From contig CAVVHK010000021.1 in the NCBI GenBank assembly GCA_963747865.1, positions 1 through 24,000 of the forward strand: DNA of 24,000 bases, in the 5' to 3' direction. Position 1 is the stretch's first letter. Each line of letters opens with the position of its first letter. Under the pieces are notes generated by a model. That model worked only from the letters and a program-made list of their open reading frames with translations. It was not told the origin of the DNA and did no database searches. This document shows, piece after piece, positions 1 to 15,208 of the stretch. A program made the position numbers and the translations under genes. This DNA is from an uncultured delta proteobacterium. GTDB taxonomy: Bacteria > Desulfobacterota > Desulfomonilia > Desulfomonilales > Desulfomonilaceae.

Positions 1-3
1 TTA

Positions 4-348
4 CTACCAAACCCTTAAAACCTTCCAGCCTTGTTTTTTAAGCTTAGCCCTATTGTTCCTGTCGCGCAAAATATTCGACTGGATTTTCCCACCCCGGAAT
101 CTTTTTTAGGCAACCTGCTCTTTGTTTTGTTAAAATCATATCCGTGCCAAAAGTCCCCATCTATAAAAATGGCTATTTTTTCCTTTTGGCAAAGCTATGT
201 CCGGGCTTCCGGCGCACTTCTTATAATGCCTTTGGAAATATACTTTGCGCCTCCTAAGCTCCCTGAAAACCAAGCTTTCAATTTTAGTATTCTTGGAGCG
301 TACTTTAGACATGATGTCGCTCCTTTTTTTCTTGCTGAAAACATCCAT
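4..348 (-). pseudogene. vsr: Very-short-patch repair endonuclease (Vsr), reading frame broken at least twice
   Basis: ORF 136..348 reads KKRSDIMSKVRSKNTKIE...GSPDIALPK, the Vsr N-terminal half. The rest of the family signature appears only after changing frame: IAIFIDGDFWHG (about 176..141) and FRGGKIQSNILRDRNNRAKLKKQGWKVLRVW, then TAG at 4..6. It lies next to a C5 methyltransferase, the classical dcm-vsr pairing. Confidence 0.8.
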
Positions 349-381
349 AAAATGATTTATGCCCTGTGGATAATTACCCGC

Positions 382-411
382 TTGGATATTCGGTTTTTAT
401 TCGGGTATAAT
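382..411 (+). promoter_or_regulatory. Sigma-70-type promoter for the LexA-like gene, with a direct-repeat candidate operator in the spacer
   Basis: TTGGAT (382-387), 18-nt spacer, TATAAT (406-411), about 29 nt upstream of ATG 440. The spacer contains ATTCGG twice (388-393 and 399-404), 11 nt apart. Confidence 0.5.
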
Positions 412-439
412 GAAATAATTATATCATAATAAAAATGCT

Positions 440-1037
440 ATGGAAACATTAACAAAAAAGCAAAAACAAATTTTCGACTTCTTCAACTCATATATAGAAG
501 ACAATGGCATATCCCCTACCTTTAGGAGATAGGAAAAAATTTAAGCTGAAAGCGATATCTACTGTCCATGAACATATCGGGATGATTAAAAAAAAAGGCT
601 ATCTTTTAAAAACCGAACAGCTCTCAAAGAAGTTTCGCGCCAAAAAAAGAAAACAAATCTAGTTATAGAAATACCTATAGTCGGGCGAATCCATGCCGGC
701 CAGCCGATTGAGGCAATTGAAAATATGAGGATACGGTTTCGGTAGTCAATCCGAAAATAAAAAAAGCTAACGGCTATTACGCCCTGCGCGTTGCGGGAAA
801 TAGCATGATCGATGAAGGAATTTTCGACGGCGATATTGTTGTCATCAAAAAACAATCTGTTGCAGACAATGGCCAGACCGTCGTGGCTATCATCGACGAA
901 AATCAGGCCACTCTTAAAAAACTCTATCGGGAGAAAAACAGGATAAGGCTCGAACCGAGGAATCCAAATATGCTTCCAATTTTCAGGAAAGATGTTGAGA
1001 TCAGGGGCGTCGTCGTGCAGGTAATAAGCGATATTAA
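440..1037 (+). pseudogene. LexA-like repressor (winged HTH plus S24 peptidase domain), frame broken about 3 times; C-terminal end uncertain
   Basis: Frame-hopping translation from ATG 440 gives four segments. They are METLTKKQKQIFDFFNSYIEDNGISPTF; then IGKKFKLKAISTVHEHIGMIKKKGYLL (HTH); then IPIVGRIHAGQPIEAIEN (Ala-Gly cleavage-site region); then YYALRVAGNSMIDEGIFDGDIVVIKK...ATLKKLY (S24 Ser and Lys motifs, ORF 805..). Breaks lie near 530, 650 and 725. As written, the last frame runs on into the methyltransferase without a stop. A TAA at 1035-1037 is reachable in another frame. Confidence 0.75.
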
Positions 1038-2013
1038 TGACAAGCCCGAACAAGCTTCAACTAAAAAAACAAAACATGGATTTAAAACGCTGGATCTTTT
1101 TGCCGGAGTAGGCGGAATAAGATTGGGATTTGAAAAGGCCGGATTCAAAACGGTATTTGCAAACGATTTTGACGCGCAGTGCAAGAATACATATGATTTG
1201 AATTTCAAAAAATCAAAGCTTGTCGTAGAAGACATAAGGAAAGTTGGGATCGACGATCTTCCTGAATTTGATTTTTTGCTGGGAGGTTTCCCCTGCCAGG
1301 CTTTTTCCATCGCCGGATACAGGAAGGGCTTTGACGATGAAAAAGGCCGGGGAAATTTATTCTTTGATATTGCAAGAATTTTAGATGCTCGCAAGCCTGA
1401 AGGATTCTTGCTGGAAAATGTGAAAAATTTAAGAAGCCACGACGGAGGAAAACATTTAAAATAATTCAGGAAGCTCTGGAAGGCCTCGGATACCATATTA
1501 AAACAAAAGTTCTGAACAGCATGGAATATGGAAATGTTCCGCAAAATCGCGAGCGCATTTATATCGTGGGATTTAAAAACGCAGAATACCGCGATAAGTT
1601 TGAATTTCCGAATCCATCAAAACTCACAACAAAAATTACAGACCTCCTAGAAAAAAATGTTAATGAAAAATATTATTATAATGGAAAGCCCTTGTTTGAG
1701 AAGCTAAAAAATTTCGTAAAGGACGAAGGAAAAGTCTATCAATGGCGCAGGCAATATGTCCGAGAGAATAAAAGCGGAGTCTGCCCGACTTTACTGCAAA
1801 CATGGGAATGGGAGGCCACAACGTGCCGATTATAAAAGATGGAAACGGCATAAGGAAGCTTACTCCCTTGGAATGCTTTAGAATCCAGGGCTTCCCCGAG
1901 GATTTCCAATTGCCTAAAATATCAGACTCAGCTTTTATAAGCAAGCAGGAAACTCTGTAAGCGTCCCTGTGCTTGAAGCTGTAGCAAAACAAATGATGAG
2001 GGCTATGTCGTAG
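1037..2013 (+). pseudogene. DNA (cytosine-5)-methyltransferase, frame broken at least 3 times
   Basis: The C5-MTase motifs occur in order across three frames. They are DLFAGVGG (I), GGFPCQAFS (IV), ENVKNL (VI), PQNRERIYIVGF (VIII), CPTL(T)ANMGMGGHNVP (IX region) and QAGNSVSVPV (X). The gene ends MMRAMS then TAG at 2011-2013. Breaks lie near 1455 (A-run), 1790 and 1935 (T-run). A candidate ATG at 1037 overlaps a TAA (TAATG) but is in a different frame from the body. Confidence 0.85.
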
Positions 2014-2528
2014 CTACCAGACCTTCACGGATTTTGCCAAAGGTTTTATTCCATATCTCGCAATTATCTCTTTCTTGATGCCAAACCTCGGACGCCTTTT
2101 CTGCTCCTGCTGGTCGGTGAATTTCTCTTTTTTATTAAGGCTTGGTTTTTTATATATTTATTAGGAATCAAATATACGTCGAAATATCCATCGCATTTCC
2201 CATCGTTGTAAAAATCAAGCAAGTACAAATCGTCCCATTTGGATTTCGGCCCGAACGTGGTCAAATCTTTCTCAATGCTGCAAGGCTTAATCTGTTGGGC
2301 TTTCCCTGTTTTTAAATCAAAAGTATCAAATGATCCGGCAATGCCCTTATTCGTTCCCTTGATTTTAAGATATCTCCCCGCCCCGGACCATAAACAAAAA
2401 GCAACTTCGGATAATCCTTCAGGAAAATTCGGCTCCCTGGCTTTATAATCCCTTAAGCCAAGCTTGAGGTTTTTCCAAATATCAAAAATGTCCTTCCATT
2501 TCTTGCCGTCAGTTTTATCAAAATGCAT
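2014..2528 (-). pseudogene. Putative type II restriction endonuclease (PD-(D/E)xK-like), C-terminal frameshift
   Basis: ORF 2064..2537 is convergent with the methyltransferase and meets it tail to tail at 2013/2014. It contains SFDTFD...CSIEKD, compatible with a D...(D/E)xK nuclease motif. After the T/A-run near 2131 a second frame continues KKEKFTDQQEQKRRPRFGIKKEIIARYGIKPLAKSVKVW to a stop at 2014-2016. The first ATG is at 2528; the track start at 2537 is TTG. The assignment rests mainly on context. Confidence 0.5.
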
Positions 2529-2762
2529 TAATTGCAAATTGCATTTCTGGCCGAAAACTTTGGTTCGTGTTCTTGAATTTCCATAAATTGTTTAAAATGA
2601 TTATTAGTTGAATTATCATATTCACTCTATTACTAAAAATGGCCGCTTTCAAGTGCTTTTGAGCTGGCGGGTTTTGAGGCACAGGGTCTGGACTAATAGG
2701 CACAATTGCGTCATTCCTTGTACTTGAGGGGTAAACTATTAACCAACCCTTCAAGCAAAAAC

Positions 2763-4086
2763 ATGGAACAAATAACACAAATAAAAAACAGTCTGCCGTC
2801 CCCTCCTCCTGTGATTATCGGGAAAATAAAGTACTGCCTTTATGCCAGGAAAAGCACAGAATCAGAGGAACGGCAGGTAATGTCGATAGATTCGCAGATA
2901 AAAGAAATGTTGCAGGTCGCAGAACGGGATGGGCTGGAAATCGTGGAAATCCGGCGAGAATCGCACTCTGCTAAAAATTCCAGCGAGAGGCCTGTGTTCA
3001 ATTCAATAGTTGAGGATATTAGATTAGGAAAATTCAACGGCATAATGACATGGGCGCCGGACAGGCTTTCCAGAAACGCTGGAGATTTAGGATCGCTAGT
3101 GGATTTGATGGATCAAAAATTATTGGCAGAGATAAGAACGCATAGCCAGATATTCACAAATAATCCGAATGAAAAATTTCTGCTAATGATATTGGGCAGT
3201 CAGGCAAAACTGGAAAATGATAACAGAGGTATTAACGTAAGGCGTGGCCTTCGTACCCGGTGTGAAATGGGCTTGCGGCCGGGCACAGCGCCAACAGGAT
3301 ATTTGAACGAAAAAAGGATTGATCGAAAATGCCAGGTTGCGCTGGATCTAGAACGAGCCCCGATTATCAAAAAAATGTTTGAAAAAGTGGCATTCGAAAA
3401 TTGGTCTGGCATAAAGCTTTATCACTGGATGAGATTTGAAATTAATTTCCGTACAATACATCAGCACCATCTTTCATTAAGTAATATCTACTTAATTTTA
3501 AGAAATACTTTTTACTACGGCGTTTTTGAATATCCAGAACACAGCGGCAACTGGTACAACGGAAAACACGAACCGATTATTGATAAAGATTTATTTGATA
3601 AGGTTCAACACCAACTAAAAGTAGATTATGTCAGAACAGAAAAGGAATTTGCTTTCACAAAACTTATAACTTGCGGACACTGCGGATCGGGAATTTCGGC
3701 TAGAGAAAAATTCAAAAAATTAAAAAATGGTAAGACATTGAAATTTATTTATTACGGATGCAGTAAAGTCCAGAAATTTACATTGCCACGAAGGCTATCT
3801 TCGGGAAGAGGATTTAATTAAACAACTGATGGATATTATTGATAAAATGGACTGAATGATATTGAAGTAAAACACAAATTCCCAAGAAGAGGTAAAAAGA
3901 TACAATATATTCCAAAAACGTGTATTAAAAAATGGAGATAATGAACAACCGCAAAAAGACGTAGATATTAAGAGTTATATGAAATATTTACTCAAGGAGG
4001 GCAGTATATCAGAAAAACGAGAAATACTTTCCTGCATAAAAAATAAGATTGTGATTAGAAAGAAAATTTTAAGCATAGAACAATAG
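2763..4086 (+). pseudogene. Large serine recombinase (resolvase/invertase catalytic domain, recombinase domain and zinc ribbon), C-terminal third frame-broken
   Basis: ORF 2706..3821 shows YARKSTESEE...SIDSQ (catalytic Ser region), DRLSRN, the recombinase-domain YYGVFEY and a CGHCG...YYGC zinc ribbon. The C-terminus continues in other frames: RNLHCHEGYLREEDLIKQLMDIIDKMD, then LNDIEVKHKF, then QEEVKRYNIFQKRVL...ILSIEQ, with TAG at 4084-4086. The likely start is ATG 2763 (MEQITQIK). Confidence 0.85.
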
Positions 4087-4091
4087 AAAAT

Positions 4092-4120
4092 AAAAACAGA
4101 GTTTTTTGAGCTCTGTTTTT
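4092..4120. terminator. Bidirectional hairpin terminator between the convergent recombinase and maf genes
   Basis: AAAAACAGAG (4092-4101) pairs with CTCTGTTTTT (4111-4120) across a 9-nt loop. The A-run and T-run flanks would serve either strand. Confidence 0.6.
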
Positions 4121-4135
4121 AACTTTTGAACTTGG

Positions 4136-4719
4136 CTACAATTTTTCTAAAACGTTAACACCAAAATTTTTGAGCTCTTCCACTAACGGTAACATTGGCA
4201 GCCCTACAACATTGAAATAATCCCCCTCAATCTTTTCTACAAAAATTCCTCCGCGATGTTGCATGGCATAGGCGCCGGCTTTATTCACGGCTCGCCCAAA
4301 GAAATATAGTCATCAATATCTTTTTCCGAAATATCTGTAATAAAAACTTTTGTTTCTACCGATCTGGTAGCTTGTTTATTTGTTTCCGTATCGATTATTG
4401 TAAATCCAGTAATAACAGAATGCGCTTTTCCGCTGAGTTTATTTAGCATAATTTTAGCATTTTCTTTTGTATGCGGTTTGCCAAGAATTTCCTTATCTAA
4501 AATACAAAAAGTATCGGCTGCAATAATAATGGAATTTTCGTGCCTCTTTGCCACATCTTTTGCCTTTCCCAAAGATAAAAATTCCGCCAATTTACTTGGC
4601 TCCATTTTTAAGGTCATATCTTCTTCGTAATTACTTGGGTCCACTTCAAATTCCAAGCCAATTTGATTTAATAAATCTCTTCTTCCCTGAGAGCCTGACG
4701 CTAAAATTATTTTTTTCAT
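4136..4719 (-). pseudogene. maf: Maf-like nucleoside triphosphate pyrophosphatase, single frameshift near 4285
   Basis: ORF 4285..4719 reads MKKIILASGSQGRRDLLNQIGLEFEV...GKAHSVITGF...DYISLGEP. The conserved C-terminus VNKAGAYAMQHRGGIFVEKIEGDYFNVVGLPMLPLVEEL follows in another frame down to TAG at 4136-4138. Confidence 0.85.
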
Positions 4720-4742
4720 ATTTTATATTTTTAAATTATTTT

Positions 4743-4753
4743 ATTATATCACA
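4743..4753 (-). promoter_or_regulatory. Extended -10 promoter for maf
   Basis: The minus strand reads TGTGATATAAT (TGnTATAAT) about 24 nt upstream of ATG 4719. No Shine-Dalgarno motif lies between them. Confidence 0.45.
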
Positions 4754-4756
4754 AAT

Positions 4757-4783
4757 AAAAAACCCGCGGATAAACCTTGCGGG
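4757..4783 (-). terminator. Rho-independent terminator of the hammerhead-containing operon
   Basis: The minus strand reads CCCGC-aaggtttatcc-GCGGG followed by TTTTTTATTT. It lies about 40 nt after the stop (4821-4823) of the receiver-like gene. Confidence 0.65.
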
Positions 4784-4820
4784 AAGTTGATGAGCTCAAA
4801 CTTCTAAGCTTTTTTTGAAG

Positions 4821-5509
4821 TTATTCAGCGCGATCAACGATGAGTCGCTGGAGAATCCCTCCCCAGTTTTTGCCGCCTTCGATGCGATCGTGCCGCACCA
4901 TGGTGAACTGCCGTATTTTCCTTCCCAGCTTCTGACTCAAGAAAGTATCGGGAATCAGTTCGCCCGTGTGTTCATCCAACCACACAAGGCTGAAGCCGTT
5001 GGTGCAAATCAAGCGAATGCCCTTTGCCTTGCTGGTCCCGGAGAAACAGTACGAGTGCGTCGAACGCACGATGGTCATGGTGACCCATATCCGTTACTAC
5101 GGCAACATTTTTGACGCCAGCATGAATTGCCAACAGGGCAATGATCGCACCCAGGGGCATCTCTTGTCCAGCAAAGCGCTCACCCTTTTCGCCAAGCTTT
5201 GCCGTGATGCGGGCATAAGCAGATACGGTCAAGACGACGTCGAAATTCGGATAAGTCGTGGCCTTCTCCATGCATTCCTGATAGTATTGCATGCGAATCG
5301 GTTTCTCCTGCGAATCCTTGCAGTCATACGGATCGGTGCTTCCGTACTTCTCCTTAAAAAAACGCTTCCGCGCGCTCACGATTCTTTTTCGGCACAAGTG
5401 CCGCCTGCGCTTGATCATAATTGCCGACGATCGTGAGATCGTGACCCTTCAGAGTCAACTCAGCCGACTTGCGGTGGACAGGACTGTCATCAAACACCAA
5501 AATCTTCAT
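4821..5509 (-). pseudogene. CheY-like receiver-fold protein of unknown function, frame broken at least twice
   Basis: ATG 5509 is preceded by AAGGAG. The N-terminus MKILVFDDSPVHRKSAELTLKGHDLTIVGNYDQAQAAL looks like receiver strand beta1 with its acidic pair. The gene continues through ORF 4972..5418 (break in a T7 run near 5355) and ORF 4821..5078 (break near 5050). After NFDVVLT, the receiver-like motif DLLMPAS is readable only one frame off. Confidence 0.55.
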
Positions 5510-5537
5510 CACACTTCTCCTTATTCAGTTTTCCAAA

Positions 5538-5594
5538 GAACCCTGTTTCGTCCTTTCGGACTCATCAGCGAGGATACACATCCGAACAAGACCC
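5538..5594 (-). ncRNA. Hammerhead ribozyme motif, type III topology (copy 1)
   Basis: Minus-strand RNA: GGGUCUUGU-U-CGGAUGUGUAUCCUCG-CUGAUGA-G-UCC-GAAA-GGA-C-GAA-ACAGGGUUC. The CUGAUGA and GAA cores are intact. Stem II is 4 bp closed by a GAAA tetraloop. Stem III is open, formed by GGGUCUUGU with ACAGGGUUC and several G-U pairs. The cleavage triplet is GUU, and stem I is GGAU/AUCC plus a closing C-G with a 2-nt bulge. Confidence 0.8.
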
Positions 5595-5648
5595 ATATCT
5601 TCTTGACATGGGCTGTGATTTTTTAAGTATCACAACTTCTTTCAGTCG

Positions 5649-5804
5649 TCACTTTTTCTTTGGAGTCATCCTCCGAAAGAAATCGCGGACTTGATTCGCC
5701 AGCTCGATGATCTTTTGATCAGTGAGTTCTTTCTTGGGAATCATGAAGACATCAGCAGCGATGCGCGCCAGACGCTTGTCTTCCTTTGTCGGTTTTGCTT
5801 TCAT
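5649..5804 (-). CDS. Small hypothetical protein (51 aa)
   Basis: It is absent from the ORF track because it is under 60 aa. ATG 5804 is preceded by AAGGAG at good spacing. Translation: MKAKPTKEDKRLARIAADVFMIPKKELTDQKIIELANQVRDFFRRMTPKKK, stop at 5649-5651. It lies between the two ribozyme-led genes on the same strand. Confidence 0.45.
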   Translation of the reverse strand: MKAKPTKEDKRLARIAADVFMIPKKELTDQKIIELANQVRDFFRRMTPKKK

Positions 5805-5840
5805 CTAAAGCTCCTTGGTTTGAGTAATTACTGTAATTGG

Positions 5841-6451
5841 TTACGATGCCCGAATGGCCAACAATGTATCGCACCATTGAAGTTGATTCCATTTGTCAGC
5901 CTCACTGAGACCTGCAACAAGACATTTGCATTTGTTGTCACAACCGGTTGCTGGATAATGTACATATCCGGCACCCTGACCAGGCCCCGACCACAAGTTG
6001 CCGAGCGCCTTAACGCTGAACATTTCATCTTTCCAATGTTGAGCGCCGAAAGCCAGGATGCTGATCCCTCGCAGGCCCTAGGCCCATGTGCCACAAGCGC
6101 TTAATCGCCTCATCAATCTTCATGCGCTCTGCATACTCATCGCCGCAGATAATAAGAAAAGCTTCGAATTCGACGATTCCGTTGCCGTTTATCGAAAATT
6201 TCTTGGTGCCGAAATCTTTGTCGACAGAGCTATATCCTCCGGCGGCGATCATCTCTTCAATGGACATGGAGTAATCAATCCTAATTGTGAAGCGCCTCTT
6301 AGTCTTGCGTTCAATCTTCACAATCTGTTCGGCGATGCAGTCCATAACTCCCTTCGCCTTCGAATGAAGAACATTGACGCATATGAGTTCCACCCTTTGC
6401 CTTCACCGAAGCTTCGATCTCAGTCCAAATATTCTTCAATTCTTTTGACAT
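5841..6451 (-). pseudogene. Hypothetical protein (~200 aa) of unknown function, frame broken at least twice
   Basis: ATG 6451 (MSKELKNIWTEIEASVKAKG) joins ORF 6025..6393 (...SIEEMIAAGGYSSVDKDFGTKKFSINGNGIVEFEAFLI...EAIKRLWHMGL). That joins ORF 5841..6023 after a break near 6065 (...ISILAFGAQHWKDEMFSVKALGNLW...LLAIRAS). I do not recognise a named family. Confidence 0.5.
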
Positions 6452-6488
6452 GATTCAAATTCCCCTATAGTTTTTTTCAAAGAACTTT

Positions 6489-6541
6489 TCCTGTTTCGCT
6501 CTTTTGAGCTCATCAGCGAGAGCACGCACTCTCGGACAAGA
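6489..6541 (-). ncRNA. Hammerhead ribozyme motif, type III topology (copy 2)
   Basis: Minus-strand RNA: UCUUGU-C-CGAGAG-UGCGUG-CUCUCG-CUGAUGA-G-CUC-AAAA-GAG-C-GAA-ACAGGA. All invariant core positions are present. Stem I is a perfect 6 bp with a hexaloop, stem II is 4 bp with an AAAA loop, and open stem III is 6 bp. The cleavage triplet is GUC. Confidence 0.88.
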
Positions 6542-6920
6542 GCCCACTCACAAGACAACTCCCGGCGATCCACAGGACCCAAGCGCTATCCATCTCAACC
6601 CAAGGAACCTCTTTTTCGGAGGACGGAATCCGCGCAGGCGCCACTCAAACGCAAGGACACATGGTCGCTCACGCCTGCCCCCGTTCATATAAAGATACGA
6701 AGCTATTTACGAACCGCTCTACTCGTCTCGTGCGTTAGCGAAGGCCTTGCAGGGCTTTCGCCGGTAAATCAATTATGAAGATGGCGCCCAAACGTCGCAT
6801 TTGCGCCCTTTGAAGCGCTCCCGCTTTAAATTTGAAATTGGCCCGAGGGAAGTATTGCAGCCGGCTCGAAGCCGTAATTTCGATATTTCGGGAATTCGCC
6901 CGCGGGTGTTCACACTGCAA

Positions 6921-7526
6921 TTACTTGTTTATTTTCGCCAATTGACCGATCAATTCTTCCAATCTCGGAACTGTATTGATATCGTGAATTTCTATGTACC
7001 TAATTATCCCTTGTTTGTCTATTACGAACAATGCCCTCTCCGCTGTGCCGTCACCTCTAAGCACTCCATAACTCTGAGCTACCGCGCCGTGAGGCGAAAA
7101 GTCGGAGAGCACCGGGAACCAGACGCCGCCCATTTCTTTAGTCCAGGCGAATAGGGTTGGCGCGTTATCAACGGAAATTCCGAGCACCACCGCCTGGTTC
7201 TTTTCAAAATACTCCTTGGCAATGTTGTAGCCCGGCCATTGCTGGGAGCATACAGGGGTCCATGCGGCGGGAACAAACGATAACACAACGTTTTTTTTGC
7301 CCCTGAATTCGCTCAAGCTTACTTTGCCCCCTGAAACTGACGGCAGAGTGAACTGCGGCGCAACGTCGCCCACTTTGGTCTTCAGTTGGCTGTCCGTGGC
7401 TTTGAGCGTCCCCGGATTGAAAATGCGCGGGTCCATTGGACTAGGGCCTTCCGGGTTCGCGGCCGATCCGACAAGACAAATCATGACGAAGACAACCGGC
7501 GACACTATGAATTTGGTTAAGCTCAT
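6921..7526 (-). CDS. Peroxiredoxin (AhpC/TSA family) with N-terminal signal or anchor sequence
   Basis: 201-aa ORF. It has a hydrophobic N-terminus and [36 protein letters not shown], with the peroxidatic Cys in TPVC. The thioredoxin-fold remainder is intact. Confidence 0.9.
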
Positions 7527-7535
7527 GATTAAGCC

Positions 7536-8103
7536 CTAAAAAGATTCGTCGTTGCGGATTCTCTTCAGAAACCCCTCGGTATCCTTAATGCGTCCCAAAT
7601 GAACCCCCTTGACCTCAAAGGCTCCTGAACCGACCTTCTTCAGGGTACAAGAACGTCGGGGTCCGAACATGCTCGGAGAAGGCCTTCTGCACCGCAAATG
7701 AATCATCAGGCAGAAGAGGAAACTTGATGTCGTATTTTTTTCTGAACACGTCCACTTCAAAGGGCGTATTCCCGACTCCTATGCCCAACACTTTCAATTT
7801 GGTTTTTAGACTTTCATCTTTCTCAACCGCTGAGAACAGCTCGTTCACATTCGGCGCTTCCGCTTGACAAATCGGGCAATACATACTGAATATTTCCACG
7901 AGTAGGTAGGCCGCCGGAGCCTCAGAAAGCGTGAAGGACTCTTTCTTCTTCACCTGCAAGTAGGCCTGTTCATCTGCGTTCTTCGGGGCCTGGAAACGAA
8001 TCTTGCTCAGAGCGGTTGTGTCCACTTTAAGGGATGTGGCCATTGCGAAACCGGCGGAAACAGCGAAGGCGCAAATTAACAAAACAATTAAACGGTTACG
8101 CAT
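7536..8103 (-). pseudogene. TlpA/ResA-like thiol-disulfide oxidoreductase (CPIC motif), apparent single frameshift near 7655
   Basis: The real start is ATG 8103 (MRNRLIVLLICAFAVSAGFA, a signal peptide). It has a YCPICQ redox motif and then ...HVRTPTFLYP. The expected last strand and helix (LKKVGSGAFEVKGVHLGRIKDTEGFLKRI) lie in the frame of ORF 7536..7760. Confidence 0.75.
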
Positions 8104-8176
8104 AGCAATTCCCCGACGAACTCCGTCTGTCACGAGAACGCCCCATCCTGCCGAGCCGCGTCTATCGCGCTTACGA

Positions 8177-8365
8177 TCATTTGGCCCCCGGCATGGGAAC
8201 AGGCTTAAACATTTTCTTGGTGGCGCCGCAGATCGGGCATTTCCAGTCATCGGGAAGGTCTTCAAAGGCCGTCCCTTTGGGAATCTTCCCTTTCCTATCC
8301 CCTCTGGAAGAGTCATAAATATATCCGCAATTCACAGTTTGGCACTGATAGAGTTGTTGGCTCAT
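8177..8365 (-). CDS. rub: Rubredoxin
   Basis: 62 aa with [13 protein letters not shown] and [15 protein letters not shown], the two Cys-x-x-Cys knuckles of rubredoxin. Confidence 0.92.
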
Positions 8366-8474
8366 TTGGCGCCCTTGAATCCTTTCAGGTTAGATCTCAG
8401 GTAAATCGGCTCCTCAGATAATTCTGATCGCTTCGGATCGCGCTACTGAACCGTATCCATTCGGTTACGCGGGG

Positions 8475-8559
8475 GAGATTGCTTCGCCCCGCTCGCAATG
8501 ACAAGCCCAAATGTCATTGCGAGGACTGAAATCCCGCGTTCCGGCGGGAAAGCAATCTC
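8475..8559. repeat. Nested inverted-repeat element (REP/MITE-like)
   Basis: The outer arms GAGATTGCTT (8475-8484) and AAGCAATCTC (8550-8559) enclose the perfect inner arms CTCGCAATGACA (8492-8503) and TGTCATTGCGAG (8512-8523). A related half copy lies at 9489-9523. Confidence 0.7.
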
Positions 8560-8743
8560 TGTATTCGCCGCTCATGACTGAATGGTTACAATGAACCAAT
8601 ATACCGATCTTCGAAAGCAGCGGGTCAATGAACGGGCTGCAATAATTATATCTCGTGAAGAGATTCGGGGAAGGCCTTTTTCCAAAGAAGCCCTCCCGCG
8701 TATCTCTTCCAAACACCCTTAGATTTGGCGACTTGCTCTAATA

Positions 8744-9115
8744 TCAGTCCTTCCAAAGTCCGTGCAGGTTACAGTATTCACGCGCCGTCCATTCGCCCTC
8801 CACAGGGAATACGGCTTCAGGAGCCTGGCCAGGTTTTAAGAATTGCTTGTAGGTTTTGTCGCCCGAAATAATCTCCACCCACTCGATAAAATGCTTTTCT
8901 TCCATAGGGTGAGGAACGGAGCCCACCTTCACCTTCAGCCCGCCGGCCACTGTCTCCTTCACCGGGACATGTTTCTCTTTAGCAGCGTCAACAGTGTTTT
9001 CTTTGAACAATTTCATAGCTTGGCCGCAACAAACAAGTTCTCCAACGCCAGTATGTACCATTTCCACAATGTTTCCACAAATTTCACATTTGTAAACCTG
9101 AAGAAGCTCTGTCAT
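8744..9115 (-). CDS. dfx: Desulfoferrodoxin (2Fe superoxide reductase)
   Basis: 123 aa. It has the N-terminal desulforedoxin-like CEICGN...VCCG and the C-terminal SOR centre residues ([23 protein letters not shown]). Confidence 0.93.
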
Positions 9116-9488
9116 AACAACCTCCGAATTCCAGCATTAGAAAGTGTAGATTCAATATCCGAGGAACCAAATCCCCCCTGTGACTCAAAGGCTTCCGGTC
9201 TTTTTTCATCATACAAATTTTTGCTGAGACTTACAATTTGATTACGACGCCGCAAAGAGTCGCCGGTCCCGAACATTCCAGATGGCCGACCTAATAGACG
9301 CAATAATTAAGACTTTGAGCGGATATTTCGGCGGGCCTTTCTCTGAAAGAAGGCCCATCCGGGAGCCTCTCCCCGAAGCTCTTAAAGTCATCCGCATTCA
9401 AAACTCCGGGAACTTCGGAACCGTGCGGAGCCGAATTCTGTCGTTGAGGGGGTTGTAGCCAATGGCAATCTCATCGTCCATAAAACGT

Positions 9489-9523
9489 GAGATCGCTTCG
9501 TGGCTTCGCGCCTCGCAACGACA
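9489..9523. repeat. Partial copy of the 8475-8559 repeat family
   Basis: GAGATCGCTTCGTGGCTTCGCGCCTCGCAACGACA resembles GAGATTGCTTCGCCCCGCTCGCAATGACA at 8475-8503. The second arm is absent. Confidence 0.5.
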
Positions 9524-9576
9524 TATTTGCAGATCAAAGCAATTGAAGCGCTTTTTTACCTATGCGGCGAATCGAT

Positions 9577-9605
9577 AAAAAAATGACTACAGGTTCTGAA
9601 ACCTG
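9577..9605 (-). terminator. Rho-independent terminator after rubrerythrin
   Basis: The minus strand reads CAGGTT-tcag-AACCTG (9605-9590), followed after 6 nt by TTTTTTT (9583-9577), directly after the stop at 9608. Confidence 0.55.
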
Positions 9606-9607
9606 AT

Positions 9608-10183
9608 CTACCAATTTTCAGCCAAAATCTCGAAATACGATTGCGGGTGGGCGCAAGCCGGACAGGCGTCCGGGGCTCCATTTCCTTCATGAAGATAGCC
9701 GCAGTTTATGCATCTCCAAACTACGGGGCTTTCTTTTTTGAAGACCAGGCCCTGCTCCACGTTGCGAAGCAGATGCAAGTAGCGTTTTTCATGCTGTTTT
9801 TCAGCGACGCAAACCGCTTCCCAAATTTTTGCGGCGACATCAAATCCTTCGGCGTAGGCTGTCTTGACGAAACCGGGATAGAGTTCAGTCCACTCAAAAT
9901 GCTCCCCTGCCGCAGCTTCTTTCAAGTTATTCATTGTGGCCGCAATTACGCCCGCGGGAAACGCTGCTTGGATAACCAAATCGCTTCCCTGGAGCTGCTT
10001 AAAAAACCTTTTTGCATGCTCTTTTTCTTGATTGGCGGTTTCTTCGAAAATCTGGGCGATTTGAACAAACCCCTCGTTCTTGGCCTGCGAAGCAAAATAA
10101 GTGTATCGATTGCGAGCCTGGGATTCTCCTGCAAACGAAATCAGAAGGTTCTTTTCGGTTTCGGAACCCTTCCAGTCCACCAT
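9608..10183 (-). CDS. rbr: Rubrerythrin
   Basis: It starts at ATG 10183 (MVDWKGSETEKNL) with AAAGGAGA upstream. It has di-iron four-helix motifs (ESQARNRY, EKEHAK, EKQHEKRY) and a C-terminal rubredoxin-like CINCGY...CPACAHP. Confidence 0.92.
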   Translation of the reverse strand: MVDWKGSETEKNLLISFAGESQARNRYTYFASQAKNEGFVQIAQIFEETANQEKEHAKRFFKQLQGSDLVIQAAFPAGVIAATMNNLKEAAAGEHFEWTELYPGFVKTAYAEGFDVAAKIWEAVCVAEKQHEKRYLHLLRNVEQGLVFKKESPVVWRCINCGYLHEGNGAPDACPACAHPQSYFEILAENW

Positions 10184-10263
10184 TGATGTTCTCCTTTCAT
10201 CGATTAATTTGGCGTTGGTCAAGCGCTTTAAACCGCTTGGCAAAATAGAAATTCCAAAACAGC

Positions 10264-10713
10264 TCAGCATAATTTCCCTTCGGGCCGCCCGCCGGATGCG
10301 AGCTCTCCCTCTTCCAGCTCGGGATGTTTACGTCTGCAATCCGGACACAACCCCATGAACTCCAATTTGTGCCACAGAACTTTATAGTCGCTCACCTGAG
10401 CGAGCGTCTGGTCAATCATGGAAATAGGATCCAGGGGCGCATCATCGACGCGCTGACACTTAACACACCTTATGTGGTAGTGATTGGCCGCTTTCCCGTC
10501 GAACCTCTTCTGCGAGCCCGCCATCTCTAACTTCAAGATGACTCCCATTTCCGAAAGAAGTTCCAGATTCCTGTAAACCGTCCCCAGGCTGATTTTAGGC
10601 AAACGTCGGCGCACCATTTCGTAGACCTCCACGGCGGTAGGGTGTGAATGCACCTTACTGAGCTCTTCGATTATGATGCGACGCTGATTTGTCACCCGCG
10701 GCCGAGCGTTCAA
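10264..10713 (-). CDS. perR: Fur-family transcriptional regulator, PerR-like by context
   Basis: 149 aa with a winged-helix N-terminus (HPTAVEVYEMV...ISLGTVYRNL), HYHIRCVKCQRV and a CPDC Zn-site motif. It lies immediately upstream of rubrerythrin. The start appears to be TTG 10713, with AAAGG upstream. Confidence 0.75.
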   Translation of the reverse strand: MNARPRVTNQRRIIIEELSKVHSHPTAVEVYEMVRRRLPKISLGTVYRNLELLSEMGVILKLEMAGSQKRFDGKAANHYHIRCVKCQRVDDAPLDPISMIDQTLAQVSDYKVLWHKLEFMGLCPDCRRKHPELEEGELASGGRPEGKLC

Positions 10714-10749
10714 TCCGTTTACCTTTCAGTAATAGTAATCAGTCTCATT

Positions 10750-10778
10750 AAGCTACAATCACTCGCTCTGACTGTCAA
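10750..10778 (-). promoter_or_regulatory. Candidate sigma-70 promoter of the perR-rbr unit
   Basis: The minus strand has TTGACA (10778-10773), a 17-nt spacer and TAGCTT (10755-10750). A tandem AGTAAT-AGTAAT (plus strand 10728-10739) lies just downstream in the leader as a candidate operator. Confidence 0.4.
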
Positions 10779-10799
10779 GAGAAACTTTCCCCACTTCGA

Positions 10800-11498
10800 T
10801 TATTTTTGCGCCGGATCGGGAACGCCGACCTCTTCGAACCCTTTTTTTCTTAATATGCAACTATCGCAATGTCCGCATGGCCTCCCGGACGGAGTAGGAT
10901 CGTAGCATGAATGGGTAAGGCCGTAATCCAGCCCCAGTTCCAGGCCTTTCTTAATTATCTCCGCTTTGGTCAGCATTATCAATGGAGTATGAATTGTCAT
11001 CTTGAAGCGGCCTTCCACAGCCTGTTTCGTGGCCAAGTTGGCCATGGCTGCGAACGCTTCGATGTATTCCGGTCTGCAATCGGGATAACCCGAGTAGTCT
11101 ATGGCGTTGACTCCTATGAAGATATCCGCGGCCCTAAGGACTTCGGCCCAAGCCAGAGCAAACGATAGGAATATCGTGTTCCTTGCGGGCACATAGGTTA
11201 TTGGAATCCCGACCTGCATTTCTTCAAGGCTGCGGCTCTTCGGGACTTCCAAATCCGAAGTGAGAGCCGAACCGCCGATTTTGTCCAGCGGCAACTCCAG
11301 AACCAAATGTTCGATGACTCCGGCCGCCTGGGCCACTTTTTGCGCGGCTTCCATTTCCACCCGGTGGCGTTGGTGATAATAGAAACTGATGGCATGTAAT
11401 TGGTAACCTTGAGCTTTTGCAATAGCCAAACATGTGGAGGAATCCACTCCACCGGAAAGCAGCACAACCGCTTTTCCAGGTGATTTCGTCAAATCCAT
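10800..11498 (-). CDS. queC: 7-cyano-7-deazaguanine synthase QueC
   Basis: It starts at ATG 11498 ([21 protein letters not shown], a PP-loop) with AAGGAGA upstream. The C-terminal Zn motif is [14 protein letters not shown]. The 303-aa track ORF is an upstream over-extension. Confidence 0.92.
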
Positions 11499-11665
11499 AT
11501 TGGTCTCCTTGTTCGTAAGCATGCCCAGAGAGAAAACTTTTCTTGTGCAACGGATTGACGCCGACGACCATGGGCTTCTCCCATGGCTACCCATGGGAAC
11601 TCCCCCGCAGGAGGACAAGTGGAGGCCGTCATGACGCCATCTTGGAAGTTCTTGAATCGAGGTCG

Positions 11666-11697
11666 GGAGGGGAACTTCCTTGAAGTAGTTCCCCTCC
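11666..11697 (-). other. Perfect 11-bp hairpin in the arsS-queC spacer
   Basis: GGAGGGGAACT (11666-11676) pairs with AGTTCCCCTCC (11687-11697) across a 10-nt loop. No U-tract follows on either strand. Confidence 0.5.
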
Positions 11698-11733
11698 GGC
11701 AGCTCTCTCATGAGGGCTCTTACCTTAATTCTA

Positions 11734-11749
11734 CGCTCGAACTCAAGCG
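11734..11749 (-). promoter_or_regulatory. Candidate bacterial SECIS hairpin for the arsS-like UGA
   Basis: The minus strand reads CGCUUG-AGUU-CGAGCG, a 6-bp stem including one G-U and a loop containing GU. It starts 14 nt after the UGA. Confidence 0.55.
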
Positions 11750-12723
11750 ACTATGGCGCCCCCTCAGGTGAATCCCGAGCCGGCGGTACATGCGTAACAG
11801 TGATCCGATACCGCAATGTTGGCTCCCGGAGCAGGTGGACGGTCAACCTCAGACACACTGGTCCGAATCCCCCCGGCAGGAATTCCGGCAGCCAAGTTGA
11901 AATCGCAATCATAAAGATAACCGTCCCACGACACCGAAATGAGGCTTCTGCACATCAGGCCGGGGACCGTGCAAGGGTTAAATTGGCCGGCCAATTTCTT
12001 GAGGTAAGATTCGTAGTTGCCGGACGCGAGCAACCAGCTCTTGAATCTGCCCAACGGAACGTTGGCGAAAGTGAAAAGATTGCTGAACTCGATGGCCCAT
12101 TTTTCCTTGAGCTCCCGACGAAACCTGTCTCCGGCCTCCTGCGGGCCGGGCGGCAAAAACGCGCCGGCGGGATTGCTCACAAGGTTGAGTTCCAAACCTG
12201 TCTCAGGGAGCCCATAACCCGCTCGGTTGAGCAGTCTTAACGCTTCGATGGTTTTGTCAAACAAACCGAAACCGCGTTGAGTCTCCAACTGGCGCAGATT
12301 AGTCGAAGGAAAAGAACCGACGATCACTACGCCCAAATTCGCGCATGCTGACACTATTTCATCCGATGGTCGTTCGACCAGGACCGTTAGATTCGAGCGC
12401 AGCATTACGCGTGGGGCCGCATGTGAGGCTTTCTTCAACAAATACAAAAGATTTGGGTTTAACTCCGGGGCGCCTCCGGTTATGTCTATTACCTGAAAGG
12501 CCGATTTTTCGGCAAAGTCCACCACGAGACCCATGGTCTCGCGTGTCATGATTTCCTCCCGATCGGGCCCCGCCTCGAGGTGGCAATGGCGACAAGCCTG
12601 ATTGCAGGCAAACCCGACGTTAACCTGCAAGACGCCTGTTTCCGCGCGCTTTAGATCCAGCCCGTGCTTGGTCAGCGCGCCGTGAAACGGCAGGATTCCC
12701 TCAATTCTGGCTGCGATGGACAT
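11743..12723 (-). CDS. arsS: ArsS-like radical SAM / Cys-rich domain protein, probable selenoprotein (UGA at 11766-11764 read as Sec)
   Basis: It has the radical SAM motif CNQACRHC near the N-terminus and a long Cys-rich C-terminal domain ending [31 protein letters not shown]-like hairpin follows the first TGA. From memory, members of this family carry Cys or Sec at this C-terminal position. Confidence 0.8.
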
Positions 12724-12739
12724 TGCGTCGGCCTACGTC

Positions 12740-13073
12740 TTACAAAGACATCTTTGTCGCAACGTTACGCATCTGGATGCCATGCACGAGCGACGATCCT
12801 CCGCGAATAGCCACGGCCACATGCACAGCTTCAGTCATTTCGTCCAGGTTCGAGCCCTTTTCCAGGCAAGCCTGAGTATATGCGTCAATACAATACGGAC
12901 ACTGCACCGTGTGCGCCACGGCCAGGGCTATCAGCGACTTTTCTCGTTCCGTGAGCGCCCCCGCCTTAAAAACCGTGGCATAATATTCGAAAAACTTCTT
13001 CGCCGGCTCAGGCGCGTCTTCTCCTATCTCGCCGAACTTCAATAGGTCCTTTGGATCGTAGGTACGTTTCCAT
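12740..13073 (-). pseudogene. AhpD-like (carboxymuconolactone decarboxylase family) peroxidase-like protein, apparent 1-nt frameshift at the N-terminus
   Basis: ORF 12740..13042 has ALTEREKSLIALAVAHTVQCPYCIDAYT, the AhpD-type CxxC. Upstream, ATG 13073 gives METY and then, one frame off, YDPKDLLKFGEIGEDAPE joins the ORF. No in-frame ATG or GTG exists otherwise; the track start is TTG. It is adjacent to the ArsS-like gene, a pairing I recall for this family. Confidence 0.75.
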
Positions 13074-13298
13074 TTTTGCCCCTTCGTGGTCGAGCGGTCG
13101 AAAATCTCTCTTGAGTTTGAGAGCGATGTATACTACCCACAATATTAATGGGCTGAGCAACCAAAGCAAAGAGTAATTTGACTTCGCGCCTGTTAAGAAG
13201 TTTTCCGGCCGTTTGCCGGGGCGTGTCTCCTTGGCGCCGTCAAAGTAATTACAGCGATAAACGATCACCATTTCCGAAAAAAGGAATCAAATACAATC

Positions 13299-13955: not shown

Positions 13956-14751
13956 TCTCGCTTGCGGCCTTCTTGAAGCGCAGCCGGTGAGACTGTTCGA
14001 GGCTGCCGTTGCTAACTGCGGCGCGAGTAATAATCGATACTGCGCTCTTTCAGCGCAGCAGATCGGTCGCTACCAACAGGCGGTTCCCGGCGCGCCCTCA
14101 CGAAAGATTGGGAGTTGTGTCAGCGGAGCCTTTTTGGAACGATAGCGTTCCAACGGGTCCCAGGGACCGCTGATTGCCTGGTTTTCGCGCAGCTAACGCT
14201 CGATAATCGCCCCCCATTCCATTGCATGGGTCCAATGGACCCGGCAAGTCTTCCTCGTTCGCCTCACGATGCGCCTCGGTATAGACCGAACTAAATGATA
14301 TCATGGACTAATTATTACCACTTCCTATCCGCAAAATCTGGCCCAATAGTTGCTACACTTTACCTTCTCGGAAAGTTGAGGACGGGCACACGGTTACCTC
14401 ATACCGTTTCGAAGAGTTCAAATTAACTCCTGATTTCTATCTCCTTGGCTGGAGCCTGGGAATAAGCGAGTAGATCACTTCAATTTGCCCTAACTCGGAT
14501 CAGATCGCAGCGGGCAATGATTCAGGGCAAAAGTCCGGCATGGGCGCCGGCGTGTGGAGAAACAGCGATTGCGAACTCCGATGAGGTGGCCAAAGCTGGG
14601 CCATTGAGTGCGTGAAAAGAGAGAGACCGTCGCTTCATAACAAACCATTTCCGGGCATGGAGTAACTTGTGTGAGTCATGAGGGGAGAAGACCAGGTATC
14701 CGTAACTCTTCCAACAACACTATCCCAATTACCACCAAGTGGAGGAAAGCC

Positions 14752-15201: not shown

Positions 15202-15208
15202 GTGTAAT

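What the first reader, a model, noticed from the sequence alone, without database searches (positions are those of the whole stretch)
5538..5594. Second hammerhead copy whose stem II covaries with the first
The minus strand reads 5'-GGGUCUUGU U CGGAUGUGUAUCCUCG CUGAUGA G UCC GAAA GGA C GAA ACAGGGUUC-3'. The catalytic core is identical to the copy at 6489-6541. Stem II differs by compensatory changes (UCC/GGA versus CUC/GAG) and has a different loop. This is the pattern expected for a conserved RNA structure rather than a chance match. Stem III is longer. The cleavage triplet is GUU, which is allowed but usually slower. Stem I is shorter and bulged: GGAU/AUCC plus a closing C-G with a UC bulge. 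This copy may therefore be weaker, differently tuned or partly decayed. Indel errors in this region could also distort it.
Basis: partly seen in the sequence, partly recalled or inferred. Interest (0 to 1): 0.8.

Follow-up and report, generated by a model that had tools for sequence, protein, structure and literature searches.

The report
Second hammerhead ribozyme, stem-damaged copy
This is a genuine second copy of a self-cleaving hammerhead RNA that sits between genes to cut a multi-gene transcript; the type is already known from bacteria and phages, and this copy is missing two bases in one stem, either from a sequencing error or from real decay.

Summary
Stem II differs from the copy at 6542-6486 by two compensatory pairs.

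It is not a chance match. A covariance model built from 125 related type III hammerheads, none from this window, scores copy 2 at 75.4 bits and copy 1 at 51.3 bits (E 3.5e-13). Nothing else in the window exceeds 10 bits. The family occurs in 112 viral contigs and in Patescibacteria-type contigs, often as arrays between small genes. Covariation supports all three stems.

Copy 1 is the ortholog of the hammerhead upstream of intact homologs of the downstream gene C.

Copy 1 is the only one of 144 comparable family matches with a broken stem I. Two bases are missing from the 5' strand (CG--GA opposite UCCUCG). The surrounding 6.5 kb has about 1% frame-breaking indels and the rest of the window has none. 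The lesion may therefore be an assembly error or real decay; I cannot tell which.

Likely role: self-cleavage between cistrons. Clustered hammerheads flanking genes were described in 2011, so this is a new member of a known kind, of modest interest.

The parts
5538..5594 (-). Hammerhead copy 1 (type III). Layout on the minus strand: stem III 5' strand 5591-5586 (possibly to 5594); U17 at 5585, with cleavage between 5585 and 5584; stem I plus loop 5584-5569; CUGAUGA 5568-5562; stem II plus GAAA loop 5561-5550; GAAA 5549-5546; stem III 3' strand 5545-5538.
   Evidence: Sequence. Rfam RF00008 33.1 bits. Family model R1 51.3 bits, E 3.5e-13.
5569..5584 (-). Defective stem I of copy 1, CGGA-UGUGUA-UCCUCG. 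Two bases are missing from the 5' strand relative to the family's 6-bp stem. CGAGGA would pair perfectly with UCCUCG.
   Evidence: The R1 alignment places a 2-nt deletion here. The defect is unique among 144 comparable matches. Orthologs have 6-nt strands on both sides: L236 and L234 pair at all six positions, and L233 has a C-C mismatch at the core-adjacent pair.
6486..6542 (-). Hammerhead copy 2 (type III), intact. GUC triplet, with cleavage after C6535. Stem I 6534-6517, CUGAUGA 6516-6510, stem II 6509-6498, GAAA 6497-6494.
   Evidence: Rfam 41.1 bits. R1 75.4 bits, E 2.4e-20. The hammerhead fold is the minimum-free-energy structure.
5592..5634 (-). Two hairpins immediately upstream of copy 1 (5634-5614 and 5612-5592). 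They are the likely 3'-end structure of the upstream cleavage product.
   Evidence: MFE -17.2 kcal/mol. Across the family the upstream 47 nt average -15.8 against -6.5 for control windows, p 8e-46.
5513..5541 (-). Leader between copy 1 and gene C. It contains the conserved motif GUUCUUUGGAAAA and a Shine-Dalgarno AAGGAGAA (5522-5515).
   Evidence: Nearly identical to the leader of ortholog L233. The motif is shared by copy 2 and by L120, L125, L234, L236 and L239. Predicted pairing with the SD.
5841..6451 (-). Gene A, an orphan ORF broken into three frames, between the two ribozymes.
   Evidence: Three-frame translation. The only database hit is the window's own contig.
5649..5804 (-). Gene B, a 51-aa ORF that ends 55 nt upstream of the copy 1 cleavage site.
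   Evidence: no family match.
4821..5512 (-). Gene C, a CheY-like family of about 230 aa common in Patescibacteria. Here it is broken by 7 indels, none a multiple of three. Its start (ATG 5509) lies 28 nt after the end of the ribozyme.
   Evidence: 226 homologs; P0004 is 72% identical over 100% of the reconstructed protein. tblastn and DNA alignment to L233.
4755..4812 (-). Two hairpins followed by a T-run after gene C, read by eye as a terminator. This is the likely 3' end of the transcription unit.
   Evidence: Read directly from the sequence. Not flagged by the consensus scan, because the loop is longer than 8 nt.

Best explanation
Copy 1 is a true member of a large family of type III hammerhead ribozymes. 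The family has a 6-bp stem I with loop UGNGUR and a 4-bp stem II with loop RAAA. It is found in phage contigs and in Patescibacteria-type contigs. Copy 1 is the ortholog of the hammerhead that precedes the CheY-like gene C in related genomes.

Proposed mechanism, with shown and inferred steps kept apart:
- Transcript (inferred). The minus-strand transcript runs HHR2 - geneA - geneB - HHR1 - geneC - terminator.
- Cleavage (inferred from the hammerhead class; not tested for these copies). Each ribozyme folds as it is made and cuts itself, after C6535 and after U5585. That releases a 950-nt geneA-geneB RNA and a separate geneC mRNA.
- Ends (hairpins and ORF spacing shown; consequence inferred). 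The upstream product ends in a stable hairpin with a 2',3'-cyclic phosphate. The downstream mRNA starts with a 5'-OH and the folded ribozyme about 25-35 nt ahead of its start codon. Neighbouring cistrons would thus acquire independent stabilities.

As assembled, copy 1 lacks two bases in the 5' strand of stem I. This is either an assembly indel, which I slightly favour, or a recent real lesion. In the first case the real ribozyme is intact. In the second it is weakened or dead.
For: Family membership.
- R1, built without the window sequences, scores copy 1 at 51.3 bits (E 3.5e-13) and copy 2 at 75.4 bits.
- Of 88 unique raw pattern matches in viral contigs, taken with no pairing filter, 87 have 6/6 stem I pairs and 87 have 4/4 stem II pairs. 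All 88 have U16.1 and a non-G at position 17.

Covariation.

Orthology.
- Intact gene C homologs in L233, L234 and L236 each carry this hammerhead upstream.
- The leader is nearly identical to that of L233, while stems I and II differ by compensatory changes.

Intercistronic design.
- 135 of 137 family members have a same-strand ORF starting a median of 20 nt downstream.
- The 47 nt upstream are strongly structured.
- Arrays of 3-6 copies occur in L120, L125, L236 and L239.

Precedent. Perreault et al. 2011 (PMC3088659) describe multiple hammerheads flanking genes. In vitro cleavage was shown for three tandem arrangements and in vivo cleavage for one.

Indel-error reading.
- Gene C has 7 indels relative to L233, none a multiple of three, one of them a 2-nt deletion.
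- Maf and the C5 methylase are also split.
- The 17 kb to the right has intact ORFs of 844 and 854 aa.
Against: - Copy 1 is below Rfam's gathering score (33.1 vs 48.5).
- Its stem I is reduced to one pair, a 2-nt bulge and then 3-4 pairs.
- ViennaRNA puts the hammerhead fold at -9.2 kcal/mol against a competing fold at -15.0, and gives the stems about 0.3 probability.
- No promoter was found for the unit.
- Nothing here shows transcription or cleavage.
- Gene A has no homologs, and genes A and C are broken as assembled, so the cassette may be non-functional.
Confidence: 0.62

Rival explanations
1. Decayed relic. The 2-nt stem I deletion and the frameshifts are real. The cassette is a dying, horizontally acquired or integrated segment next to a serine-recombinase island, and copy 1 no longer cleaves efficiently.
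For: - Copy 1 is the only one of 144 comparable family matches with a stem I strand deletion.
- A misfold is favoured by 5.8 kcal/mol.
- Frame-breaking lesions are confined to the foreign-looking left 6.5 kb. That segment also holds a split methylase, a restriction enzyme and a serine recombinase that looks short at 371 aa by my recollection of the family; this was not tested.
Against: - The 3' strand of stem I and both loops are untouched and still match the family, so any lesion is very recent.
- Differences from L233 at the start of gene C, read by eye and not counted, look mostly third-codon-position. The sequence otherwise looks selected.
- An indel rate of 1% next to a region with none also fits uneven read coverage or polishing.
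Confidence: 0.28
2. Tuned variant. The bulged, shortened stem I is an adaptation that slows or regulates cleavage of this particular junction.
For: - Natural hammerheads tolerate, and sometimes use, bulges in stem I (general knowledge of Schistosoma and sTRSV hammerheads).
- Perreault et al. suggest that slower phage variants may be regulated.
- The core and the core-adjacent pairs are intact.
Against: - No other family member, and none of the orthologs upstream of gene C, has such an asymmetry.
- The unpaired 3'-strand bases are exactly those that would pair with the missing two. This points to a fresh deletion rather than an evolved architecture.
Confidence: 0.06
3. Chance resemblance. The motif is not a ribozyme at all.
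For: - It falls below the Rfam gathering threshold.
- The MFE fold of copy 1 is no better than shuffled sequence, z -0.14.
Against: - Independent family model E 3.5e-13.
- Orthologous copies sit at the same position relative to gene C.
- The flanks are shared with copy 2.
- Family-wide covariation.
Confidence: 0.01
4. Excision and circularisation module. The two ribozymes exist to release a 950-nt RNA that is then ligated into a circle, as in retrozymes or viroid-like RNAs.
For: - Two same-strand type III hammerheads flank a discrete segment, and the product ends (5'-OH and 2',3'-cyclic phosphate) are substrates for RtcB-type ligases (general knowledge).
- Perreault et al. raise the possibility.
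Against: - Perreault et al. looked for spliced or circular products and found none.
- The repeats are limited to the ribozyme and a 13-nt leader motif, with no long terminal repeats.
- The intervening segments are ordinary ORFs with ribosome-binding sites. Array members have variable spacing and end at terminators.
Confidence: 0.03

Closest known systems
Hammerhead ribozyme type III (Rfam RF00008, clan CL00010)
   Same: Identical catalytic core (CUGAUGA / GAAA), A15.1-U16.1, H17, three-way junction, loops closing stems I and II, open stem III.
   Different: This phage- and Patescibacteria-associated subfamily scores only 28-43 bits against RF00008, below the gathering score of 48.5. Standard annotation therefore misses it. 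Copy 1 in addition lacks two bases of stem I.
Clustered hammerheads flanking genes in prophages and bacterial operons (Perreault et al. 2011, PMC3088659: Agrobacterium tumefaciens ardA, Clostridium scindens, Azorhizobium caulinodans)
   Same: Several same-strand hammerheads lie within a few kb and bracket single genes or short gene blocks of variable identity. A recombinase and restriction-modification or anti-restriction genes are nearby. The proposed role is processing of polycistronic RNA.
   Different: - The relatives here are largely in Patescibacteria-type contigs, where hammerheads also lie next to ordinary cellular genes (BtpA, Maf).
- The subfamily has a conserved UUCUUUGAAAA leader motif.
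- No activity data exist for these copies.
HHphage upstream of the helicase gene in haloviruses HF1/HF2 (described in PMC3088659)
   Same: The hammerhead lies a few tens of nucleotides or less upstream of a start codon, so cleavage defines the 5' end of the mRNA.
   Different: HHphage is a structural variant that needs high Mg2+ and lies at the start of a transcript. Here the ribozymes are canonical and sit between cistrons.
Retrozymes and viroid-like circular RNAs with type III hammerheads
   Same: Paired type III hammerheads on one strand delimit an RNA of several hundred to about a thousand nucleotides.
   Different: There are no long repeats and no non-coding cargo. The cargo is ORFs with ribosome-binding sites in a DNA genome context, and there is no evidence of circles.

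Membership tests
Hammerhead ribozyme, type III | Conserved core C3 U4 G5 A6 N7 G8 A9 and G12 A13 A14 | tested here: met
   CUGAUGA at 5568-5562 and GAAA at 5549-5546, identical to copy 2.
Hammerhead ribozyme, type III | A15.1-U16.1 pair and a non-G nucleotide at position 17 | tested here: met
   U16.1 is 5586, A15.1 is 5546 and U17 is 5585. GUU recurs in the family: L120 twice, L125, L218, L146, L188, L199.
Hammerhead ribozyme, type III | Watson-Crick pairs adjacent to the core (1.1-2.1, 10.1-11.1), the Perreault 2011 acceptance rule | tested here: met
   C5584-G5569 and G5561-C5550. Rule quoted.
Hammerhead ribozyme, type III | Three intact helices. [quoted passage not shown] | tested here: inconclusive
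   Stem II has 4 pairs and stem III at least 6, both intact. Stem I is one pair, a 2-nt bulge, then 3-4 pairs. Restoring two bases gives a perfect 6-bp stem.
Hammerhead ribozyme, type III | Type III topology: stems I and II capped by loops, open ends in stem III | tested here: met
   Rfam aligns full length, positions 1-54 of RF00008. R1 aligns positions 1-57.
Hammerhead ribozyme, type III | Score at or above the Rfam RF00008 gathering threshold | tested here: not met
   33.1 bits against 48.5. The whole subfamily, including clearly intact copies, scores 28-43 bits, so this threshold does not discriminate here.
Hammerhead ribozyme, type III | Covariation supporting the helices in homologs | tested here: met
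   A3: 13 of 16 pairs with double-sided changes, 94.4% paired against at most 41.9% when slid. A5, with orthologs: 12 of 16 pairs, 96% against at most 49.3%.
Hammerhead ribozyme, type III | Loop I - loop II tertiary contact needed for fast cleavage at cellular Mg2+ | not testable with these tools
   The loop sequences UGUGUA and GAAA are among the common family variants. The shortened stem I would change their geometry.
Hammerhead ribozyme, type III | Site-specific self-cleavage | not testable with these tools
   Needs in vitro transcription or RNA end mapping.
Clustered gene-flanking hammerheads (Perreault 2011) | Two or more same-strand hammerheads within a few kb bracketing genes | tested here: met
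   The cleavage sites are 950 nt apart and bracket genes A and B. Gene C follows.
Clustered gene-flanking hammerheads (Perreault 2011) | Prophage or mobile-element context (integrase nearby) | tested here: inconclusive
   A serine recombinase (2706-3821), restriction-modification genes and an S24 peptidase lie 1-4 kb away. However, the orthologous gene C loci are in cellular Patescibacteria-type contexts. PHROGs gave no match beyond one weak hit, E 0.038, to a family of unknown function for gene B.
Retrozyme / viroid-like circular RNA | Long direct repeats carrying the ribozymes, non-coding cargo, circular RNA product | tested here: not met
   The only repeats are 31 nt (the ribozyme) and 13 nt (the leader). 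The cargo is ORFs. Circularity could not be tested.

The most novel reading that the evidence does not exclude
The ribozyme pair, and the longer arrays of the same subfamily in Paceibacterota-type contigs and phages, may do more than cut. Cleavage at 6535 and 5585 would release a 950-nt two-gene RNA with a 5'-OH and a 2',3'-cyclic phosphate. An RtcB-type ligase could close this into a circular, translatable mRNA. The conserved UUCUUUGAAAA leader, which can pair with the Shine-Dalgarno sequence, would couple cleavage state to translation. That would be a prokaryotic counterpart of retrozyme circular RNAs.
Probability: 0.04. Interest if true: 0.85.

Novelty: new member of a known kind. Interest (0 to 1): 0.33.

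Why it matters
For this window the finding is ordinary: a pair of hammerhead ribozymes of a kind known since 2011. One of them carries a small lesion that may be only an assembly error.

Three by-products are of modest wider use.
- A very uniform type III subfamily falls below Rfam's gathering score, so routine annotation will not find it. It has a 6-bp stem I with a UGNGUR loop and a 4-bp stem II with an RAAA loop. It occurs in 112 IMG/VR contigs and several metagenome contigs.
- Arrays of it punctuate gene clusters in Patescibacteria-type contigs, including junctions next to cellular genes such as BtpA and Maf. I found no paper in the searched library linking hammerheads with that group.
- The family shows a consistent layout: upstream hairpin, ribozyme, a leader of about 20 nt, then the start codon. 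This layout gives a directly testable model of how self-cleavage sets mRNA ends between cistrons.

Tried and rejected
- Rfam at gathering thresholds found nothing in the window. Only the E-value mode showed the two hammerheads.
- blastn of 4800-6900 against the phage and plasmid collections found no match.
- Gene A homolog search returned only the window's own contig. The exact-protein contig look-up failed.
- tblastn of genes A-C against the first 126 loci gave no hits.
- First viral pattern with the CTCG prefix: 0 hits. The looser pattern gave 116 stretches; by my estimate, not computed, about half would be chance matches.
- My first family pattern was mis-specified, allowing 12 instead of 10 nt between CUGAUGAG and CGAAAC. 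This wasted one viral scan and the last genome-contig scan, and returned only L127, a Saccharibacteria MAG. The corrected pattern gave 112 viral contigs.
- Possible third hammerhead at 4788-4800 (13-nt exact match to the copy 2 core and stem II on the opposite strand): rejected. It has no CUGA and no GAAA, and it lies in a terminator-like hairpin.
- MFE folding does not recover the hammerhead fold for copy 1. I treat this as evidence of weakness, not against family membership.
- A 57-nt family consensus against cultured phages gave only a partial match in Cellulophaga phage phi18:3 (18 bits with R1), an intergenic site near ardA with a different stem I.
- No tRNA and no predicted sigma-70 promoter for the unit.
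- Pfam and PHROGs give no function for genes A and B. Gene C has only a weak receiver-domain hint.

Full report
**1. What is in the sequence**

The second motif at 6542-6486 reads CUCUUGU-C-CGAGAGUGCGUGCUCUCG-CUGAUGA-GCUC-AAAA-GAGC-GAAA-CAGGAAAA.

- The two cores are identical.
- Stem II differs at two pairs by compensatory changes (U-A vs C-G and C-G vs U-A).
- The triplets are GUU and GUC.
- The core pattern CTGATGA-N(6-30)-CGAAA occurs only at these two places, against 0.16 expected from shuffles.
- Cleavage would fall after U5585 and after C6535, 950 nt apart.

**2. Is it more than chance?**

- Rfam at gathering thresholds reports nothing in the window.
- In E-value mode both motifs match Hammerhead_3 (RF00008) over its full length. 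Copy 2 scores 41.1 bits and copy 1 scores 33.1 bits, against a gathering score of 48.5. Whole-window E-values are 6e-6 and 1.2e-3.
- An independent test is stronger. I built a covariance model (R1) from 125 related sequences, none from this window. It scores copy 2 at 75.4 bits (E 2.4e-20) and copy 1 at 51.3 bits (E 3.5e-13). The next best hit in the window is 9.6 bits.

There are exactly two copies, and neither is a chance match.

**3. The family**

A metagenome scan with a pattern taken from the two copies returned ten loci.
- L120 is a 2-kb contig with four hammerheads about 460 nt apart.
- L125 has three.

A corrected family pattern hit 112 IMG/VR viral contigs. The family is strikingly uniform: a 6-bp stem I, loop I UGUGUG/UGAGUG/UGUGUA, a 4-bp stem II, and loop II AAAA (99 of 127) or GAAA (15). 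The triplet counts are GUC 129, GUA 15 and GUU 4.

To avoid circularity I counted pairing in the 88 unique raw pattern matches, with no pairing filter.
- 87 have 6/6 stem I pairs.
- 87 have 4/4 stem II pairs.
- All 88 have U16.1, and none has G at position 17. Neither position was specified in the pattern.

Pair counts on the 125-sequence alignment:
- 94.4% of cells are paired, against 67% in shuffles and at most 41.9% when partners are slid.
- 13 of 16 pairs change on both sides.

The members of that alignment were chosen with a pairing filter, so the unfiltered count is the cleaner evidence.

This covers the GUU triplet, the GAAA loop and the UCC/GGA stem II.

**4.

The gene after copy 1 (gene C, 5512-4821) is broken into three frames in the window. 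A frame-corrected translation finds 226 homologs of about 230 aa, many from Patescibacteria MAGs (Paceibacterota, Parcubacteria and others). The best, P0004, is 72% identical over 100% of the reconstructed protein.

The contigs that encode the closest homologs carry the same hammerhead just upstream of the gene:
- L233 at 118-174
- L234 at 2766-2822
- L236 at 5049-5105

L234 and L236 also carry another copy just downstream of the gene.

The leader between ribozyme and start codon is almost identical in the window and in L233 (GAAACAGGG-UUCUUUG-AAAACUGAAUAAGGAGAA-GUGUGAUGAAGAU). The stems differ by compensatory changes: stem II is GUCC/GGAC in the window and GCCG/CGGC in L233.

A MAFFT alignment of 19 subfamily members, including these orthologs, was scored against the canonical hammerhead structure. 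It gives 96% paired cells and 12 of 16 pairs with double-sided changes, against at most 49% paired when slid.

**5. What is wrong with copy 1**

R1 aligns copy 1 with a 2-nt deletion in the 5' strand of stem I: CG--GA opposite UCCUCG.
- 146 matches were found in 100 sources. The 144 that score at least 28 bits are comparable; the two 21-bit hits have an unrelated stem I.
- Copy 1 ranks 133rd of the 146. It is the only comparable match with a gap in a stem I strand.
- The orthologs have GCAGGA/UCCUGC (L236), GCGAAG/CUUCGC (L234) and CCAGGG/CCCUGC (L233).
- Restoring CGAGGA gives a perfect 6-bp stem. The 3' strand and the loop are untouched, so the event is recent or artefactual.

Thermodynamics:
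- As sequenced, the hammerhead fold is -9.2 kcal/mol against -15.0 for a misfold. In the misfold the 5' part pairs with the stem II region, and the stem probabilities are about 0.3.
- The restored sequence gives -17.8 for the hammerhead fold, although a competitor at -21.2 remains.
- For copy 2 the hammerhead fold is the MFE.

It also uses GGG 5594-5592, which can instead close the hairpin CCCAU...AUGGG (5612-5592). I would not rely on the extra length.

**6. Artefact or real lesion?**

A DNA alignment of gene C with L233 shows seven indels, none a multiple of three, in about 690 nt. One is a 2-nt deletion and several sit next to homopolymers. There is one more indel in the leader. Maf (4719-4136) and the C5 methylase (805-1835) are also split.

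In contrast, the 17 kb to the right has uninterrupted ORFs of 854 and 844 aa with full domain sets, and about ten further intact genes.

The two sides also differ in affinity.
- Gene C and Maf resemble Patescibacteria-type genes. Maf is 45% identical to the Maf of L236, where the order is geneC-BtpA-Maf.
- The peroxiredoxin at 6921-7526 has its best named relatives in Desulfomonile and Desulfobacteraceae.
- The GC change at about 4770 (38% to 49%) lies inside the Patescibacteria-like part, so it is not the junction.

A quality and taxonomy break between about 6550 and 6920 fits two scenarios:
- a chimeric or unevenly polished assembly, in which case the stem I deletion is probably an error;
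- a decaying, horizontally acquired segment, in which case it is real.

I lean slightly to the first, but I cannot decide without reads.

**7. How it most likely works**

Across the family, 135 of 137 hammerheads are followed on the same strand by an ORF start a median of 20 nt after the model end. The antisense control gives 85 of 137, with a median of 76 nt. The 47 nt upstream fold far more stably than random windows of the same loci (-15.8 vs -6.5 kcal/mol, p 8e-46).

The window copies follow the same layout.
- Hairpins precede both copies (-11.3 and -17.2 kcal/mol).
- The start codon of gene A lies 34 nt after copy 2, and that of gene C lies 25-28 nt after copy 1.
- The unit ends at hairpins with a T-run at 4812-4755, read by eye.

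The supported model is co-transcriptional self-cleavage between cistrons.
- The upstream RNA keeps a 3' hairpin and a cyclic phosphate.
- The downstream mRNA begins with a 5'-OH and the folded ribozyme.
- Neighbouring genes therefore acquire independent stability.

The anatomy is shown. The cleavage and its consequences are inferred from the hammerhead class and from Perreault et al. 2011. That paper described such clustered arrangements, proposed the same role, and demonstrated cleavage for three arrangements in vitro and for one in vivo (PMC3088659).

**8. Comparison with what is known, and novelty**

- The element meets the sequence definition of a type III hammerhead. Stem I is defective, and the score is below the Rfam threshold, which the whole subfamily misses.
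- The arrangement matches the clustered gene-flanking hammerheads of 2011.
- It does not fit retrozymes or viroid-like elements: there are no long repeats and the cargo is coding.

It is therefore a new member of a known kind.

What may be new is the host range. Arrays occur in Paceibacterota-type contigs (six copies each in L239 and L236, two each in L244 and L241), next to cellular genes. They are absent from other gene C loci (L238, L243, L245). The searched literature holds no paper that connects hammerheads with Patescibacteria or the candidate phyla radiation.

**9. Verdict**

- The finding is real but ordinary. Interest is about 0.33.

Noticed in passing
window 1-6500 versus 6900-24000 (junction somewhere in 6550-6920): The left part looks Patescibacteria-like (gene C family, Maf) and carries about 1% frame-breaking indels. 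The right part looks Desulfobacterota-like (peroxiredoxin closest to Desulfomonile/Desulfobacteraceae; rubredoxin, desulfoferrodoxin, rubrerythrin, Fur-family regulator, sigma-54 activator) and has intact long ORFs. This may be a chimeric or unevenly polished assembly, or a decaying foreign segment.
   Followed up: partly
window 1-4770: A low-GC (36-41%) island. It holds an S24 peptidase domain fused to a C5 cytosine methylase that is split at 1464/1521, a Bsp6I-like restriction endonuclease (2064-2537), a serine recombinase (2706-3821) and a frameshifted Maf (4719-4136).
   Followed up: partly
window 5529-5541 and 6473-6485; also L120, L125, L233, L234, L236, L239 just after each hammerhead: A conserved motif (G)UUCUUUGAAAA directly follows stem III in this subfamily. 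In several copies, including both window copies, it is predicted to pair with the Shine-Dalgarno sequence of the next gene. It may be an anti-SD element or another signal.
   Followed up: partly
L120 about 915-860 (minus strand), L234 about 2835-2890, L239 about 490-560: In some array members the hammerhead and its leader motif are followed by a long, near-perfect hairpin of the type GUCGGAGG...CCUCCGAUAAUC (-34 kcal/mol in L120), not directly by an ORF. This may be a ribozyme-released small RNA.
   Followed up: no
window 4788-4800 (+) versus 6503-6515: A 13-nt exact inverted match. The loop of the terminator-like hairpin after gene C is antisense to UGAUGAGCUCAAA of hammerhead copy 2. By my rough estimate the chance is about 0.05, inflated by the GAGCUC palindrome. 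Unexplained.
   Followed up: partly
viral loci, e.g. L205:5606-5662, L157:176-232, L146:63-119 (U/U); L188:11767-11823, L199:6531-6587 (A/A): More than ten otherwise canonical family members have U opposite U, or A opposite A, at the core-adjacent stem II position 10.1/11.1. That position is normally a G-C pair.
   Followed up: no
all family loci: Rfam RF00008 scores clearly intact members of this subfamily at only 28-43 bits, below its gathering score of 48.5. Default annotation misses the whole group.
   Followed up: yes
L232 5969-6024 (Cellulophaga phage phi18:3, NC_021794.1 about 21929-21984): A hammerhead-like element (CUGAAGAG core variant, GUU triplet, long stem I) lies in an unannotated gap between two small early genes, about 1 kb from an ardA anti-restriction gene. 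It scores only 18 bits with R1.
   Followed up: partly
window 14671-15201: An ORF with a Cache sensor domain covers only profile positions 74-183 of 298 and has no output domain after it. It may be a truncated gene or a frameshift on the otherwise clean right side.
   Followed up: no
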